Part shown: one piece after another, positions 2,499 to 57,752 of the stretch
Numbering within the stretch: position 1 is the first letter of the stretch
Layout of the letters: each line of letters begins with the position of its first letter
From: a virus
Taxonomy: Duplodnaviria > Heunggongvirae > Uroviricota > Caudoviricetes
Length of the DNA stretch: 64,000 bases
Virus record (IMG/VR): IMGVR_UViG_3300045988_155334
Strand: one strand, 5' to 3'
Position numbers and translations under genes: made by a program
The notes under the pieces: generated by a model
What the model saw: the letters and a program-made list of their open reading frames with translations, nothing else
What the model was told of the DNA's origin: nothing
The model's database searches: none

Positions 2499-3338
2499 TC
2501 ACGCATCGCTATCCAACAGCAAATCATCTGCGCGGGTGCGATCAAACGTAGGCGTTGCTTTCACAATAGTGCCGCCCGGCGTTGCAGTGATCGGGGCGTT
2601 AATCGACGTAACTTCAGTAAGCGAAGTTGTATCCGAAGTTTCAAACCAGCAGAATGCTTTTTCGGTATCAGAAATCTCATTCAAAGTGATCATGTCGGCC
2701 TGTTCATTTACAACAACCGACAAATAGAGCGTAAGCCCATCAAACACTATATGCAGTGGCAGTAGAGGCTTTACGAACTGATTAAACTTTCTGAGAATTT
2801 CTTCTGTAATTGCGGACTGATCTATCGATCCAGTAATACCCATTGTCCGGGCCAGGTCGTTTATGGGAATACTGATCATTCCTCTGGAAGTCAGAAACAT
2901 CTCGCCGAATGTGCCGCCGGTGGTTTCCAGTGTGCTTTCTGGAATCAGGACCGTGCCATAGGGATGTCGTTCAAAGTCCACCGGAGCATATATGGGATCC
3001 CATAAAACCGATATACCGTTAAATTCGCGATAAATTGTCTGGTTTATAGGGCGTTCAGTACCCTTAAAATGGATCTCATCAAACCGCTGTTGTAACAACA
3101 TCGGAACGGAAGATGAATTCGACGTTCTGATAGTAAAAAACTGGCCAAGTTCATTTGTCCTGGTCTCCAGATCCTCCTTGCTCATGGAGAAAATAGACTT
3201 CCGGTTGGTAATTCGCTCCAACCATGGGTCAACAAAGGTGTCCATCATTGACTGAACCAAATCAGCCAATGATTTATAAAGCAATGACTTTTGCTTAGCT
3301 GATGTAAGCCGGTTATTAAACCAGGAACGTTGCATCAC
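2499..3338 (-). CDS. Baseplate wedge protein, gpI-like (P1 gp16-like by position)
   Basis: 279-aa ORF following the gpJ-like gene, the typical W-J-I baseplate order of P2/Mu-type myoviruses. Confidence 0.45.
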   Translation of the reverse strand: MMQRSWFNNRLTSAKQKSLLYKSLADLVQSMMDTFVDPWLERITNRKSIFSMSKEDLETRTNELGQFFTIRTSNSSSVPMLLQQRFDEIHFKGTERPINQTIYREFNGISVLWDPIYAPVDFERHPYGTVLIPESTLETTGGTFGEMFLTSRGMISIPINDLARTMGITGSIDQSAITEEILRKFNQFVKPLLPLHIVFDGLTLYLSVVVNEQADMITLNEISDTEKAFCWFETSDTTSLTEVTSINAPITATPGGTIVKATPTFDRTRADDLLLDSDA

Positions 3339-12204: not shown

Positions 12205-12325
12205 CCAAATTATGGTGGGGCGTGATGGGGAGGCTTCGGCCTGCTGGTTTCACAATCGCCAGTCTGCTAACCCCGTCACGTCCTGCCACCTGTTTAGCAG
12301 CGGGTAGCAGGTTGTTAAACCTGAT
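12205..12325 (+). ncRNA. c4-like antisense immunity RNA region (approximate bounds)
   Basis: Non-coding, hairpin-rich stretch between the operator/promoter and icd; position matches P1 c4; exact ends not determinable here. Confidence 0.3.
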
Positions 12326-13760: not shown

Positions 13761-14561
13761 ATGCAACAAACATTCAATGCGGATATGAATATATCAAACC
13801 TTCATCAAAATGTCGATCCTTCAACCACTCTGCCTGTTATTTGTGGTGTTGAAATTACGACCGACCGCGCTGGCCGTTACAACCTTAATGCTCTACACAG
13901 AGCGAGCGGACTCGGTGCCCATAAAGCGCCAGCTCAATGGCTAAGAACGCTGTCAGCCAAACAGCTCATCGAAGAGCTTGAAAAAGAAACTATGCAGAAT
14001 TGCATAGTTTCGTTCGAAGGCCGTGGCGGCGGCACTTTTGCCCATGAATTGCTCGCTGTGGAGTACGCAGGCTGGATTTCTCCCGCATTTCGGCTGAAGG
14101 TAAACCAGACATTTATCGACTATCGAGCCGGAAGATTACAACCTGCTATTCCGCAGAGTCTCCCTGAAGCTCTCCGTTTGGCTGCCGACCTGGCAGAGCA
14201 AAAGCAACGGCTGGAGCAAAAAATGCTTATGGATGCACCTAAAGTCGAATTCGCCGAACGCGTTGCTACCGCCAGCGGGGTTCTAATCGGCAACTATGCC
14301 AAAGTGCTCGGCCTGGGCCAAAACTATCTCTTCACCTGGTTGCGTGATAACGGAATTCTGATCGCAACCGGTGAACGCAGGAACGTCCCCAAACAAGAAT
14401 ACATATCCCGTGGGTACTTCACCCTCAAAGAAACCGTGATCGATACAAGCAACGGAAGCAGGATTTCTTTCACGACTCGTATAACCGGCAAAGGTCAGCA
14501 GTGGCTAATGAAGCGATTGCTTGATGCTGGTGTGCTGGTACCTGTCGCAGCTACGCGCTAA
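13761..14561 (+). CDS. kilA: KilA (KilA-N plus KilAC domains)
   Basis: 266 aa; C-terminal domain paralogous to Ant; sits between operator and repL. Confidence 0.75.
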   Translation: MQQTFNADMNISNLHQNVDPSTTLPVICGVEITTDRAGRYNLNALHRASGLGAHKAPAQWLRTLSAKQLIEELEKETMQNCIVSFEGRGGGTFAHELLAVEYAGWISPAFRLKVNQTFIDYRAGRLQPAIPQSLPEALRLAADLAEQKQRLEQKMLMDAPKVEFAERVATASGVLIGNYAKVLGLGQNYLFTWLRDNGILIATGERRNVPKQEYISRGYFTLKETVIDTSNGSRISFTTRITGKGQQWLMKRLLDAGVLVPVAATR

Positions 14562-14590: not shown

Positions 14591-15436
14591 ATGCTGGCTA
14601 AAGTCACTTTCCTGAGCTGTATAACGATGAGCGATTTTACTTTTTCTGGCTATGAATTAGCCTGCTTTGTAACACACTCCGGTCTATCCCGTAGCGCCGG
14701 GCATATCCTGTCGCAATGTGCAAATCTCGCGGCAACAACCAGTGAATACTTCATTCACAAGCCTCACCGCATGATCGCGGCAGAAACTGGTTATAGCCAA
14801 TCAACCGTCGTTCGCGCATTCCGTGAAGCTGTAAACAAAGGAATCCTGTCGGTAGAGATTGTTATCGGCGATCACCGTGAACGCCGCGCTAACCTGTACC
14901 GGTTTACACCATCCTTTTTAGCCTTTGCTCAACAAGCCAAAAATGCGCTGATTGAAAGCAAATTAAAGATCTCTTCAGCCGCAACCAAGGTTAAAGCTGT
15001 TCTCGCTAAGACATTGGCTTTATTTGATTTTTTATCCACACCCCCATGTCAAAATGATACCCCCTCCCCCTGTCAGGATGACGTGGCAATAAAGAATAAG
15101 AAGTCACAAGTTAAAAAAACAAAAAGATCAATTTCCGGCGGTGCCGGAACGACCAGACTCAAAAAATTGACTTCATGGATCGCTGAGGCAAAAGCAAAGG
15201 CTGACAATCTGCGGTTATCCAAAAAACGCGCTCAAAAACATGAGTTCAAGCAGAAAGTAGAGGCGGCAGCGCGGAAATATGCTTACCTGAAGAACAAGCG
15301 TTCTCCTGATATTGGCGGGGTATCAAACTTCGATAATCTGCCGCATTGCATGACGGTAAACGAAGCTCTTAATGCGGTTTTAGCCAAAAATAAAGATAAC
15401 GAACAATGGGGTATACCGGCAGGATTCAGAGGGTGA
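14591..15436 (+). CDS. repL: RepL-like lytic replication initiator
   Basis: 281 aa with helix-turn-helix-like segment; position and size match P1 RepL; the lytic origin is expected inside the gene. Confidence 0.55.
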   Translation: MLAKVTFLSCITMSDFTFSGYELACFVTHSGLSRSAGHILSQCANLAATTSEYFIHKPHRMIAAETGYSQSTVVRAFREAVNKGILSVEIVIGDHRERRANLYRFTPSFLAFAQQAKNALIESKLKISSAATKVKAVLAKTLALFDFLSTPPCQNDTPSPCQDDVAIKNKKSQVKKTKRSISGGAGTTRLKKLTSWIAEAKAKADNLRLSKKRAQKHEFKQKVEAAARKYAYLKNKRSPDIGGVSNFDNLPHCMTVNEALNAVLAKNKDNEQWGIPAGFRG

Positions 15437-15732
15437 TAGATTGCTCTAATCTGGAGTCACCTGGCGTTTTCAGTTTGAGGTCGGAGATGCAATCTGATTT
15501 TTTACAGTTAGCGATCGCTTTTGCAGGATATGTTTGTATTGGCTTCTGTGTATACATGATCAGCCGAAAAATGCTTGTCGATATCGACCGCAAAGAACGA
15601 GCAGAGGAGATCTTAGTATGGATTTTCTTTGGCGCGGTCTGGCCATTAGGGATCATGTTTGCTGCAACATTTCTTCTGATGTGGATATTCACCCTTCCAG
15701 GTGATTTCTATAGAAAAAAAGCCAGACATTGA
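15406..15732 (+). CDS. Small two-helix membrane protein (RlfA-like by position)
   Basis: ORF 15406-15732; probable start at an internal Met near 15487; two hydrophobic segments. Confidence 0.35.
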   Translation: MGYTGRIQRVIDCSNLESPGVFSLRSEMQSDFLQLAIAFAGYVCIGFCVYMISRKMLVDIDRKERAEEILVWIFFGAVWPLGIMFAATFLLMWIFTLPGDFYRKKARH

Positions 15733-15855
15733 TACAATCGTTGCGGGTGCTTGAGGCTATCTGCTTCAGGCATTACCCGAAAAGCAGATAGAAGAAAGCC
15801 CCAGATAACATTACGCGTCCTGCAAGACGCTTAACATTAATCTGAGGCCATATCT

Positions 15856-16062
15856 ATGCTTAGCATACGTAGATTAGCCTCTTACCGACCAAAAGGTCAA
15901 GGAGAAGCAGGCTATGAAGCAGCAAAAAGCGATGTTAATCGCTCTGATCGTCATCTGTTTAACCGTCATTGTGACGGCACTGGTAACGAGGAAAGACCTC
16001 TGCGAGGTACGAATCCGAACCGGCCAGACGGAGGTCACTGTCTTCACAGCCTACGAATCTGA
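15856..16062 (+). CDS. mok-like overlapping reading frame of the hok locus
   Basis: 68-aa ORF that starts upstream of and overlaps the hok-like ORF in another frame, the typical hok/mok arrangement. Confidence 0.35.
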   Translation: MLSIRRLASYRPKGQGEAGYEAAKSDVNRSDRHLFNRHCDGTGNEERPLRGTNPNRPDGGHCLHSLRI

Positions 16063-16069
16063 AAGGTAA
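15914..16069 (+). CDS. hok: Hok/Gef-family type I toxin (small membrane peptide)
   Basis: MKQQKAMLIALIVICLTVIVTALVTRKDLCEVRIRTGQTEVTVFTAYESER (51 aa), near-identical in pattern to Gef/HokC; ribosome-binding site AAGGAG upstream. Confidence 0.8.
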   Translation: MKQQKAMLIALIVICLTVIVTALVTRKDLCEVRIRTGQTEVTVFTAYESER

Positions 16070-16143
16070 GAGACCTGGCGGGGAGAGATCCCCGCCACTC
16101 TTCGTGTGTCAGGTATCCTCAATGCACCCTTTCCTCTCCAAAT

Positions 16144-16170
16144 AAAAAAGCTCCCGAAGGAGCTTTAAAA
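16144..16170. terminator. Bidirectional intrinsic terminator between the hok locus and the convergent tail operon
   Basis: aaaaag-agctcc-cgaa-ggagct-ttaaaa; T-run on the minus strand and A/T tract on the plus strand. Confidence 0.7.
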
Positions 16171-16185
16171 TACAAGGGATGACTC

Positions 16186-16695
16186 TTAATCCCACTCAAT
16201 CCAGTTGTAGACGATACGAAGTGACGGGCGCACAGCGGCAGTCACATCTTCGGTACTAAAGTCGATTGCATCACTGTAGATTTTGCAGTCCAACATTTCA
16301 ATTGTTGTAGCAGCTTTTGTCACAGCGTTAACCCCGGAAGATTTGGATTCAGGGGTAGCAGCCATCGTGATATCAACATAGTCCTTCGCCGCAATGCGAT
16401 CCTTAATGAACTGAAGAATATCGCCTTCGATAGTCTCCACGCACTGGACCTGGATTTCCCCAGAGTTTCGAATTGGTCCGTGCTGGTTGAACTTCACACC
16501 ATTCGGACCATAGTCCTCCACATCCTCGCGAGTCATTTCAGGGATTTGCGACGTACGAACAAGTACACTGATATCTTCATGGCCTGCAAAAGTGAGCTGG
16601 AATTCAGAAGATACCAGTCGTTCGCCTTTGGCCGCGTTGGCAGTATAGCGGCCCTTAATAAATTTACGGTTTCCCTTAGTGTTATTGTGCCCCAT
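16186..16695 (-). CDS. Tail/baseplate structural protein (BplB-like by position)
   Basis: 169-aa ORF, last gene of the capsid-sheath operon. Confidence 0.35.
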   Translation of the reverse strand: MGHNNTKGNRKFIKGRYTANAAKGERLVSSEFQLTFAGHEDISVLVRTSQIPEMTREDVEDYGPNGVKFNQHGPIRNSGEIQVQCVETIEGDILQFIKDRIAAKDYVDITMAATPESKSSGVNAVTKAATTIEMLDCKIYSDAIDFSTEDVTAAVRPSLRIVYNWIEWD

Positions 16696-57144: not shown

Positions 57145-57372
57145 GTGTTTATGCAATCCATTAACTTCCGTACCGCGCGCGGCAACCTTTCTGAAGTGCT
57201 CAACAATGTTGAAGCCGGGGAAGAGGTTGAAATCACCCGCAGAGGCCGTGAGCCAGCAGTAATTGTCAGCAAGGCTACTTTCGAAGCCTACAAAAAAGCG
57301 GCGCTGGATGCTGAATTTGCATCCCTGTTTGACACCCTGGACTCCACCAACAAGGAACTGGTTAACCGATAA
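57145..57372 (+). CDS. phd: Phd antitoxin
   Basis: 75 aa, [39 protein letters not shown]...; stop overlaps the doc start. Confidence 0.9.
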
Positions 57373-57752
57373 TGAGGCATATATCACCGGAAGAACTGAT
57401 AGCGCTTCATGATGCGAATATAAGCCGCTACGGCGGCCTGCCTGGTATGTCAGATCCGGGCAGGGCAGAGGCCATTATCGGGAGAGTCCAGGCCAGAGTT
57501 GTGTACGAAGAGATTACCGACCTTTTCGAAGTCTCCGCAACCTACCTGGTGGCTACTGCGAGAGGGCATATATTCAATGATGCCAATAAGCGTACCGCGC
57601 TAAACAGTGCGCTGCTATTCCTACGCCGTAACGGGGTGCAGGTATTTGACTCACCTGAACTGGTAGACCTTACCGTAGGGGCTGCAACTGGTGAAATCGC
57701 CGTATCTTCAGTCGCAGAAAAGCTACGTGAACTATATGGTTCCAAGACCTGA
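57372..57752 (+). CDS. doc: Doc toxin (Fic-fold kinase)
   Basis: 126 aa; Fic-like [11 protein letters not shown] motif. Confidence 0.9.

What the first reader, a model, noticed from the sequence alone, without database searches (positions are those of the whole stretch)
15830..16172. hok/mok-type type I toxin locus between the lytic replicon and the tail operon terminator
A 51-aa ORF (15914-16069) encodes a clear Hok/Gef-family peptide, with a mok-like overlapping frame starting upstream (15856) and a stem-loop at its 3' end. I do not recall a hok locus in the P1 reference, so this may be strain-specific, giving the element a second addiction or abortive-infection module besides phd-doc. The antisense Sok RNA should be encoded on the minus strand around 15830-15910 but cannot be delimited by eye.
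Basis: partly seen in the sequence, partly recalled or inferred. Interest (0 to 1): 0.55.

Follow-up and report, generated by a model that had tools for sequence, protein, structure and literature searches.

The report
Intact hok/sok toxin–antitoxin cassette
This is a complete, ordinary hok/mok/sok "killer peptide plus antisense RNA" cassette carried by a P1-like phage-plasmid where phage P1 itself has three other genes; the same cassette is already annotated (as hokD) in hundreds of related plasmids.

Summary
Window 15711-16131 holds a complete hok/mok/sok type I toxin-antitoxin cassette. It has a 51-aa Hok/Gef peptide (15914-16069; Pfam 78.7 bits, cut-off 22), the overlapping mok frame (15856-16062) and the hok mRNA leader (Rfam RF01794, 114.9 bits, cut-off 59). 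It also has the long-range 5'-3' (tac-fbi) and ucb-dcb pairings typical of hok mRNAs, a 3' hairpin, and an antisense Sok gene. Sok lies on the minus strand at about 15864->15794, with its promoter at 15900-15871.

P1 has rlfA-rlfB-pmgF where this element has a 693-bp substitute (15451-16143), and no hok was found anywhere in a P1 genome. phd-doc is also in the window (57151-57752).

The cassette is not new. A 100% identical copy is annotated hokD in RefSeq. At least 262 PLSDB plasmids carry it at this site, and a 2019 paper already noted the substitution by an "antibacterial toxin". Its 87-88% identical relative hokW-sokW of Stx2 phage Sp5 is experimentally proven.

The molecular mechanism is well supported. 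The biological role (plasmid addiction, lysis assistance on induction, or phage exclusion) is inferred. Interest is low.

The parts
15451..16143 (.). Segment that replaces P1 rlfA-rlfB-pmgF. It consists of a small membrane-protein ORF followed by the hok cassette.
   Evidence: BLAST against P1 NC_005856: backbone homology stops at 15450 and resumes at 16144, and P1 has 1826 bp here.
15711..15738 (+). hok promoter candidate: -35-like TAGAAA 15711-15716, 16-nt spacer, extended -10 TGaTACAAT 15730-15738.
   Evidence: Consensus scan, 9 of 12 with TG. The -10 aligns with TAGAAT of other hok cassettes. Not mapped experimentally.
15745..16131 (+). Predicted full-length hok mRNA. The 5' end is inferred from the -10 and from the start of the Rfam model. 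The 3' end is not determined and could extend to the hairpin at 16147-16166.
   Evidence: Rfam model position 1 = 15745. MFE = centroid, -157.7 kcal/mol, z -8.9. Homology to other hok loci ends at 16129.
15745..15756 (+). tac element (GGGUGCUUGAGG), the 5' partner of the fold-back helix.
   Evidence: Pairs with 16117-16129 in the MFE. Invariant in 57 cassettes.
15794..15864 (-). Sok antisense RNA, about 71 nt: 15-nt single-stranded 5' tail, long hairpin, U-rich 3' end. It covers the mok SD (GAGG 15844-15847) and the mok AUG.
   Evidence: Coordinates transferred from the sokW feature of 933W through alignment A1. Fold -29.1 kcal/mol, z -4.8. sokW shown to be a 71-nt antitoxin in Sp5 (PMC8621323).
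15871..15900 (-). Sok promoter candidate: -35 TTGACC (15900->15895), 18-nt spacer, -10 TAATCT (15876->15871).
   Evidence: Read from the sequence. It scores 8 of 12, so it fell below the scan threshold. Both hexamer regions are conserved in 57 cassettes. Not mapped.
15856..16062 (+). mok reading frame (68 codons plus stop), overlapping hok.
   Evidence: ATG kept in 56 of 57 relatives and the frame is open for 68 or 70 codons, but the amino-acid sequence is not conserved.
15879..15886 (+). ucb element (CUCUUACC).
   Evidence: Pairs with dcb 16065-16072 in the full-length MFE. It is also complementary to tac.
15899..15904 (+). hok Shine-Dalgarno sequence AAGGAG, 9 nt before the ATG.
   Evidence: Sequence. 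Invariant region in A2.
15914..16069 (+). hok CDS, 51 aa: MKQQKAMLIALIVICLTVIVTALVTRKDLCEVRIRTGQTEVTVFTAYESER.
   Evidence: Pfam PF01848 78.7 bits. 47 of 51 residues identical to HokW of 933W and 48 of 51 to the commonest prophage form. Variable columns by codon position 5/6/12.
16052..16055 (+). Tyr47 codon TAC followed by G, the TadA A-to-I editing motif that recodes the homologous Tyr to Cys in hokC/D/E.
   Evidence: Sequence. Invariant in 57 cassettes. Editing reported for K-12 hokD at 6% (PMC5630033, PMC12214031). Not tested here.
16065..16072 (+). dcb element (GGUAAGAG), spanning the hok stop codon.
16076..16097 (+). 3' hairpin (9 bp, loop GAGA). In some relatives it is the target of an IS186/IS421 insertion.
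   Evidence: One compensatory pair in A2. IS junction after 16092 in relatives.
16117..16129 (+). fbi element (CCUCAAUGCACCC), the 3' partner of tac.
   Evidence: 12 bp with one bulge. 100% of cells paired in 57 cassettes, with only G-C to G-U changes.
16147..16166 (.). P1-backbone hairpin (AAAGCTCC-CGAA-GGAGCTTT), terminator of the bplB/tail operon on the minus strand. Possibly also ends hok transcription.
   Evidence: The terminator scan flags it on the minus strand only. It lies in sequence shared with P1.

Best explanation
Window 15711-16131 is an intact hok/mok/sok type I toxin-antitoxin cassette of the HokD/HokW subgroup, carried as cargo in the variable repL-bplB interval of a P1-like phage-plasmid.

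Mechanism, shown at sequence level: a weak constitutive promoter makes a stable hok mRNA of about 387 nt. Its extreme 5' end (tac) pairs with its 3' end (fbi), and ucb pairs with dcb. This locks the mok and hok ribosome sites in an inert fold.

Mechanism, inferred from the R1 hok/sok and Sp5 hokW/sokW work: slow 3' trimming removes fbi and the RNA refolds into a translatable form. The short-lived Sok RNA is made from the opposite strand. It binds through its 15-nt 5' tail across the mok SD and AUG, blocks mok translation and so the coupled hok translation, and the duplex is cut by RNase III. When Sok supply stops, either through loss of the plasmid prophage or through a transcription shut-off, the stored mRNA is translated. 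Hok then inserts into the inner membrane and kills or arrests the cell.

Most likely role in a roughly single-copy plasmid prophage: post-segregational killing, i.e. a second addiction module beside phd-doc. A contribution to lysis on induction, as shown for HokW, is a real possibility.
For: Peptide: Pfam HOK_GEF 78.7 bits, E 2.4e-22.

Leader: Rfam RF01794 114.9 bits against a gathering score of 59, full length 1-157.

Fold: the MFE equals the centroid and closes with a 12-bp tac-fbi helix and an 8-bp ucb-dcb helix; z = -8.9. Across 57 distinct cassettes 92.5% of cells are paired, against 36-43% when partners are slid. The tac-fbi helix is 100% paired. Compensatory changes occur in 10 pairs, among them pairs of the 5' hairpin, the Sok-target hairpin and the 3' hairpin.

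Sok: the predicted RNA has a 15-nt free tail, a long hairpin and a U-rich end, z = -4.8. Promoter-like hexamers sit in conserved sequence.

Selection: the first 41 Hok residues are nearly invariant. Outside residues 42-51 only 3 variable columns change the amino acid; the rest are synonymous, all but one of them at third positions. mok keeps its ATG and open frame but not its protein sequence.

Relatives: the cassette is 87-88% identical to hokW/mokW/sokW of 933W/Sp5 (86.75% by blastn and 87.8% by megablast). That locus was shown to be a working type I TA with a 71-nt Sok (PMC8621323). HokD was found toxic in a large survey (bioRxiv 10.1101/2025.08.07.668861).

Carriage: the cassette is kept at >=98.6% identity in the full-length matches listed, among at least 262 PLSDB plasmids that carry it.
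Against: No expression, stability or toxicity data exist for this copy. The Sok promoter matches the consensus in only 8 of 12 positions and was missed by the scan. The hok -35 is poor. The 3' end of the mRNA is undefined, because the only nearby terminator scores on the other strand. The tac-ucb pairing expected for the activated RNA is possible (7 + 3 bp) but costs +6.1 kcal/mol over the predicted MFE of the truncated RNA. As cited in the Hok survey, the chromosomal hok loci tested (hokA, hokB, hokC) did not give post-segregational killing, and PSK has not been tested for this subgroup. Most E. coli genomes carry related cassettes whose Sok might cross-protect. NCBIfam's Hok subfamily model scores below its cut-off (49.5 against 73).
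Confidence: 0.85

Rival explanations
1. Same cassette, but its main role is in the lytic cycle rather than in plasmid addiction. On induction Sok disappears, Hok is made and permeabilises the membrane early, which speeds lysis and raises phage release, as shown for hokW-sokW in Stx2 phage Sp5. A trigger specific to this element is possible. hok lies directly downstream of, and in the same orientation as, the kilA-repL lytic operon, which in P1 is repressed by C1 (my own knowledge). Read-through from that operon would collide with the convergent Sok promoter.
For: Deleting hokW-sokW delayed growth arrest by about 40 min and halved Sp5 release. sokW RNA vanished on induction in a RecA-dependent way (PMC8621323). 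[quoted passage not shown]
Against: A terminator-like hairpin at 15689-15704 on the + strand lies between repL and hok and could block read-through. P1 has its own holin, antiholin and endolysin set (lydA, lydB, lyz). The effect in Sp5 was only two-fold. Nothing has been tested in a P1-like element.
Confidence: 0.3
2. Same cassette, acting mainly as an abortive-infection or phage-exclusion module. A superinfecting lytic phage shuts off host transcription, Sok decays, and Hok kills the cell before the invader matures.
For: R1 hok/sok on a high-copy plasmid reduced T4 plating by 42% and plaque size by about 85%, as cited in PMC8621323. P1-like elements carry variable cargo in this interval.
Against: The reported effect was weak and needed a high copy number, whereas this element is presumably single-copy. 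The Hok survey found no enrichment of hok next to defence systems. Not tested for this subgroup.
Confidence: 0.12
3. The cassette is an inert passenger: structurally complete but not active in its natural context, as reported for several chromosomal hok loci. It is kept only because it is small and rides with the backbone.
For: [quoted passage not shown] Relatives show decay of this very locus: IS186/IS421 inserted in the 3' hairpin, and the hok CDS deleted with only the leader left in 673R5 and RCS47.
Against: In this window every element is intact. The peptide shows purifying selection and non-coding elements such as tac, fbi and ucb are invariant across 57 cassettes. The close relative hokW-sokW is active. 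HokD peptide is toxic.
Confidence: 0.12

Closest known systems
hokW-mokW-sokW of Stx2 phages 933W / Sp5 (E. coli O157:H7)
   Same: About 87-88% nucleotide identity over the whole cassette, window 15733-16129. Same order of promoter, tac, Sok target, mok, hok, 3' hairpin and fbi. 51-aa peptide with 47 of 51 residues identical. Sok of about 71 nt in the same position. Carried by a temperate phage.
   Different: The host element is an integrated lambdoid prophage, not a plasmid prophage. The Sok 5' tail and the first mok codons differ. mok has 70 rather than 68 codons. Function is proven there (PMC8621323) and untested here.
hokD (relF) of E. coli K-12
   Same: Same peptide subgroup. PGAP names the identical plasmid copies of this locus hokD.
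   Different: The K-12 copy matches only cassette positions 168-397 at 91%. It therefore lacks the promoter, tac, the Sok gene and the mok start. It is described in the literature as lacking canonical TA components. The window copy is complete.
hok/sok (parB) of plasmid R1, the founding member
   Same: Same architecture and regulatory logic: mok-coupled translation, tac/fbi/ucb/dcb elements, cis-antisense Sok. Pfam and Rfam family membership.
   Different: Takada et al. give 44% for HokW against R1 Hok. The carrier is a conjugative plasmid. Post-segregational killing is proven for R1 only.
phd-doc of P1 (also present in this window, 57151-57752)
   Same: Plasmid-prophage addiction by a stable toxin and an unstable antidote.
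   Different: It is a type II protein-protein system (Doc, with a Fic-type HxFx[D/N][A/G]NKR motif, and the Phd antitoxin) and is unrelated in sequence and mechanism.

Membership tests
[quoted passage not shown] | Peptide of about 50 aa with an N-terminal membrane helix that matches the Hok/Gef profile | tested here: met
   Pfam PF01848 78.7 bits against cut-off 22, residues 6-47 covering profile positions 1-42 of 42.
[quoted passage not shown] | hok mRNA leader with the family's sequence and secondary structure | tested here: met
   Rfam RF01794 114.9 bits against gathering score 59, model 1-157 of 157, at 15745-15919 on the + strand.
[quoted passage not shown] | Overlapping mok frame that starts upstream of hok, with its ribosome site inside the Sok target | tested here: met
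   ATG 15856, SD GAGG 15844-15847, 68 codons. ATG present in 56 of 57 relatives and the frame always open for 68-70 codons.
[quoted passage not shown] | Long-range pairing of the mRNA 5' end (tac) with the 3' end (fbi) | tested here: met
   15745-15756 pairs with 16117-16129 (12 bp, 1 bulge) in both MFE and centroid, z -8.9. 100% paired in 57 cassettes. There is no covariation because both sides are nearly invariant.
[quoted passage not shown] | ucb-dcb pairing in the inert full-length RNA | tested here: met
   15879-15886 pairs with 16065-16072, 8 bp. 7 of the 8 pairs hold in all 57 cassettes; the eighth pairs only in the four P1-like copies (88% of cells paired overall).
[quoted passage not shown] | tac-ucb pairing in the 3'-processed, active RNA | tested here: inconclusive
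   Complementarity of 7 + 3 bp exists, but enforcing it costs +6.1 kcal/mol over the MFE of 15745-16097.
[quoted passage not shown] | cis-encoded antisense Sok gene with its own promoter and terminator, complementary to the mok translation start | tested here: met
   Minus strand: TTGACC, 18-nt spacer, TAATCT, then an RNA of about 71 nt with a free 5' tail, a hairpin and a U-rich end. The position is homologous to annotated, experimentally supported sokW. This is sequence level only; no transcript data.
[quoted passage not shown] | Stable toxin mRNA versus labile Sok, 3' processing, RNase III cleavage, peptide toxicity, post-segregational killing | not testable with these tools
   Needs Northern blots, rifampicin chase, induction and plasmid-loss assays.
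NCBIfam NF007279 (Hok family toxin, subfamily model) | Score at or above the curated cut-off | tested here: not met
   49.5 bits against cut-off 73. RefSeq nevertheless names identical copies hokD, so the name does not come from this HMM.

The most novel reading that the evidence does not exclude
In P1-like phage-plasmids the cassette may be wired to the lytic switch. It sits immediately downstream of the kilA-repL operon, which in P1 is repressed by C1 (my own knowledge), and in the same orientation. Induction-driven read-through would silence the convergent Sok promoter by transcriptional interference and release Hok as an early lysis or host-shut-down helper. One module would then serve both addiction in lysogeny and phage release in lytic growth. 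The hypervariable Sok 5' tail would keep it insulated from the many chromosomal prophage hok/sok copies.
Probability: 0.15. Interest if true: 0.4.

Novelty: already known. Interest (0 to 1): 0.15.

Why it matters
It matters little beyond correct annotation. The element carries two unrelated addiction-type modules (phd-doc and hok/sok). That bears on the stability of P1-like phage-plasmids, which spread resistance genes. It also shows that the repL-bplB interval is a cargo-exchange site. The locus would be a convenient natural system to ask whether a phage-plasmid uses hok/sok for plasmid maintenance, for lysis, or for both.

Tried and rejected
1. Chance ORF: rejected by Pfam and Rfam E-values of 1e-22 to 1e-25 and by the fold z-score.

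2. Sok on the + strand, as a naive reading of the Rfam 'sok' hit would suggest: rejected. The model starts with the hok mRNA 5' end and ends at the hok start codon, so it describes the sense leader. The annotated sokW is on the opposite strand.

3. A hok locus elsewhere in P1: none found in a full P1 genome by Rfam or tblastn. The isolate used lacks res/mod.

4. The consensus promoter scan did not find the Sok promoter (8 of 12 is below its threshold). I located it by reading the sequence, guided by my recollection of the R1 Sok promoter layout.

5. Covariation support for tac-fbi: not obtainable, because both arms are nearly invariant among the 81-100% identical cassettes available. I did not collect more distant hok loci.

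6. tac-ucb as the MFE of the truncated RNA: not predicted.

7. A local tRNA-Arg-like hairpin around the TACG editing motif: no stable local hairpin predicted.

8. Literature search for a description of hok in P1-like elements: I found only the remark 'antibacterial toxin' in Venturini 2019. Two other hits concerned hok on other plasmids.

9. Pfam and NCBIfam gave nothing significant for the neighbouring 108-aa ORF or for Mok.

Full report
**What is there**

The window is a P1-like phage-plasmid. It has the C4 antisense RNA at 12208-12293, three tRNAs, kilA at 13761-14561, repL at 14591-15436, and bplB at 16186-16695 on the minus strand.

It encodes the 51-aa peptide MKQQKAMLIALIVICLTVIVTALVTRKDLCEVRIRTGQTEVTVFTAYESER. 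This matches Pfam HOK_GEF at 78.7 bits (cut-off 22, E 2.4e-22). The overlapping frame from ATG 15856 (68 codons) is the mok frame.

Rfam family RF01794 ('sok') matches 15745-15919 over its full length at 114.9 bits, against a gathering score of 59 (E 2e-25). That hit is on the + strand. The model begins with the hok mRNA 5' end (GGGUGCUUGAGG) and ends at the hok start codon. It therefore describes the sense leader that contains the Sok target, not Sok itself.

**Anatomy**

- *hok promoter.* A promoter-like site (TAGAAA, 16-nt spacer, TACAAT with a TG extension; 15711-15738) puts the likely start at G15745.
- *Fold of the mRNA.* The 387-nt RNA 15745-16131 folds to -157.7 kcal/mol. The MFE equals the centroid, and z = -8.9 against 100 dinucleotide shuffles.
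- *Closing helices.* The fold is closed by a 12-bp helix between the extreme 5' end (tac, 15745-15756) and 16117-16129 (fbi). An 8-bp helix joins 15879-15886 (ucb) to 16065-16072 (dcb, across the stop codon). A 9-bp hairpin lies at 16076-16097.
- *Sok.* Phage 933W annotates sokW on the strand opposite hokW. Transferring those coordinates through the pairwise alignment places Sok at 15864->15794 on the minus strand. That 71-nt RNA folds into a 15-nt free 5' tail, a long hairpin and a U-rich end (-29.1 kcal/mol, z -4.8). It covers the mok SD (GAGG 15844-15847) and the mok AUG.
- *Sok promoter.* Upstream of Sok on the minus strand are TTGACC (15900->15895), an 18-nt spacer and TAATCT (15876->15871). 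As I recall it, the R1 Sok promoter has the same layout. The match is 8 of 12, so the scan did not list it.

**Comparison with relatives**

Homology to other hok cassettes runs exactly from 15733 to 16129, i.e. from the -10 box to the end of fbi. Identity is 87-91% to hokW of 933W/Sp5, to Rac-type prophage copies and to many others.

I aligned 57 distinct cassettes from viral contigs and 933W and counted the window's predicted pairs on them:

- 92.5% of cells are paired, against 36-43% when partners are slid by 1-3 columns.
- The tac-fbi helix is paired in every sequence, with only G-C to G-U changes.
- Compensatory double changes occur in 10 pairs, among them pairs of the 5' hairpin, the Sok-target hairpin and the 3' hairpin.
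- tac, fbi and ucb are almost invariant. This says nothing by covariation, but it is notable for non-coding sequence.

In the hok frame, variable columns fall 5/6/12 by codon position. The first 41 residues are nearly invariant: outside residues 42-51 only 3 variable columns change the amino acid, and the rest are synonymous, all but one of them at third positions.

The mok frame keeps its ATG (56 of 57) and stays open for 68-70 codons, but its amino acids are not conserved. This is what is expected if mok only has to be translated.

The most variable stretch of the cassette is 15851-15870. It corresponds to the Sok 5' tail, the first mok codons and the few bases upstream of the Sok start. It shows 18 variants in 57 sequences, against 11 variants for the 53-nt hairpin part.

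**Relation to P1**

Against the P1 reference, backbone homology stops at 15450 and resumes at 16144. P1 has 1826 bp there (rlfA, rlfB, pmgF), where the window has 693 bp. A complete P1 genome (OP279344, a res/mod deletion isolate) gives no Rfam sok hit and no tblastn hit to Hok better than E 0.78.

The same interval differs again in P7, RCS47, SJ46 and 673R5. It is a cargo-exchange site.

The cassette is not strain-specific:

- 262 PLSDB plasmids hold at least 80% of 15400-16200. The full-length matches listed are 98.6-99.9% identical, and PGAP names the gene hokD.
- One RefSeq E. coli plasmid is 100% identical over the cassette.
- Six phage records of P1-like elements carry it, one of which labels it MokW.
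- Venturini et al. [quoted passage not shown]
- Related cassettes occur in 4739 of 5426 complete E. coli genomes.

**How it most likely works**

The sequence-level parts of the hok/sok mechanism are all present. The dynamic steps are inferred from the R1 system and from hokW-sokW of Sp5. These steps are a stable mRNA, slow 3' trimming that removes fbi, refolding, Sok binding at the mok start, RNase III cleavage, and Hok insertion into the inner membrane.

Takada et al. (PMC8621323) showed for hokW-sokW that:

- HokW is toxic;
- sokW, with its 71-nt complementarity, neutralises it;
- RNase III and Hfq contribute;
- on prophage induction sokW disappears, HokW is made, and phage release doubles.

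One predicted step is not supported by my folding. The tac-ucb pairing of the activated RNA is possible (7 + 3 bp) but lies 6.1 kcal/mol above the MFE of the truncated RNA.

**Biological role**

The role is the open part. For a plasmid prophage that I assume is roughly single-copy, post-segregational killing beside phd-doc (57151-57752) is the most economical reading. It has not been tested for this subgroup, and the chromosomal relatives that were tested (hokA, hokB, hokC) failed such tests (cited).

A lysis-assisting role on induction has direct precedent in Sp5. It fits the position just downstream of, and co-oriented with, the kilA-repL lytic operon, although a terminator-like hairpin at 15689-15704 lies in between. 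Phage exclusion has weak precedent. An inert passenger cannot be excluded but fits poorly with the conservation seen.

**Verdict**

The kind of system, and this very copy, are already known and annotated. Interest is low.

Noticed in passing
window 15406-15732 (+); likely real start ATG 15487: A small ORF (108 aa as listed; an 81-aa form is the commonly called one, 396 member sequences) fills the rest of the substituted segment. It has two hydrophobic stretches. Homologs of 44-49% identity exist in Salmonella phage SJ46 and an E. albertii P1-like plasmid, so it is probably a real small membrane protein. No Pfam or NCBIfam family; function unknown.
   Followed up: partly
window 15440-15450: The left breakpoint against P1 falls inside the position of P1's C1 operator Orlf. 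ATTGCTCTAAT is kept and the rest of the 17-bp site is replaced, so C1 control of what follows repL may be lost or weakened.
   Followed up: partly
window 15851-15870; alignment A2 columns about 119-140: This is the most variable stretch of the otherwise 87-99% conserved cassette: 18 variants in 57 sequences. It corresponds to the Sok 5' tail, the first mok codons and the few bases upstream of the Sok start. It could set the specificity between co-resident hok/sok copies. The window's variant is shared by the P1-like group.
   Followed up: partly
window 16092/16093; loci L015, L021, L086: In a subset of relatives an IS4-family element (annotated IS421; called IS186B in Venturini 2019, with direct repeat GGATCTCTCC, the reverse complement of 16081-16090) is inserted in the loop of the hok 3' hairpin. 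This cuts fbi off from the mRNA. The G+C-rich hairpin seems to be a preferred target.
   Followed up: partly
L004 (phage 673R5) about 1731-1877; L005 (RCS47) 2805-3064: Two P1-like relatives keep only the left part of the locus, up to window 15876-15879: hok promoter, leader, the whole Sok-complementary region and the Sok -10. The hok CDS is replaced by an unrelated minus-strand ORF (171 aa in 673R5). Whether such remnants still make Sok, which would act as a possible anti-addiction function, is unknown.
   Followed up: partly
window 16052-16055: Tyr47 of Hok is encoded TAC followed by G. This is the TadA A-to-I editing motif reported to recode the homologous Tyr to Cys in hokC/D/E, creating the partner for the conserved Cys (Cys30 here). 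It is invariant in 57 cassettes. No stable local hairpin was predicted around it.
   Followed up: partly
window 15745-15919: The Rfam family called 'sok' (RF01794) matches the strand of the hok mRNA, not the strand that encodes Sok. An automatic annotation from this hit would put the antitoxin on the wrong strand and make it 175 nt long.
   Followed up: yes
window 15689-15704 (+): A terminator-like hairpin (TCACCCTTCCAGGTGA followed by TTTCTATAGA) lies inside the 3' end of the small ORF, just upstream of the hok promoter. It may insulate hok from transcription coming from repL.
   Followed up: no
loci L030, L067, L069 (alignment A2 columns about 73-120): Three viral-contig cassettes have a different, 21-nt shorter Sok-hairpin region while the rest of the cassette is conserved. 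Several of the pairs in that region differ on both sides yet remain paired. This suggests exchange of the Sok module between cassettes.
   Followed up: no
window 57151-57752 (+): phd (73 aa from the ATG at 57151) and doc (126 aa, with a Fic-type motif matching HxFx[D/N][A/G]NKR) are present and look intact. The element therefore has two toxin-antitoxin modules.
   Followed up: partly
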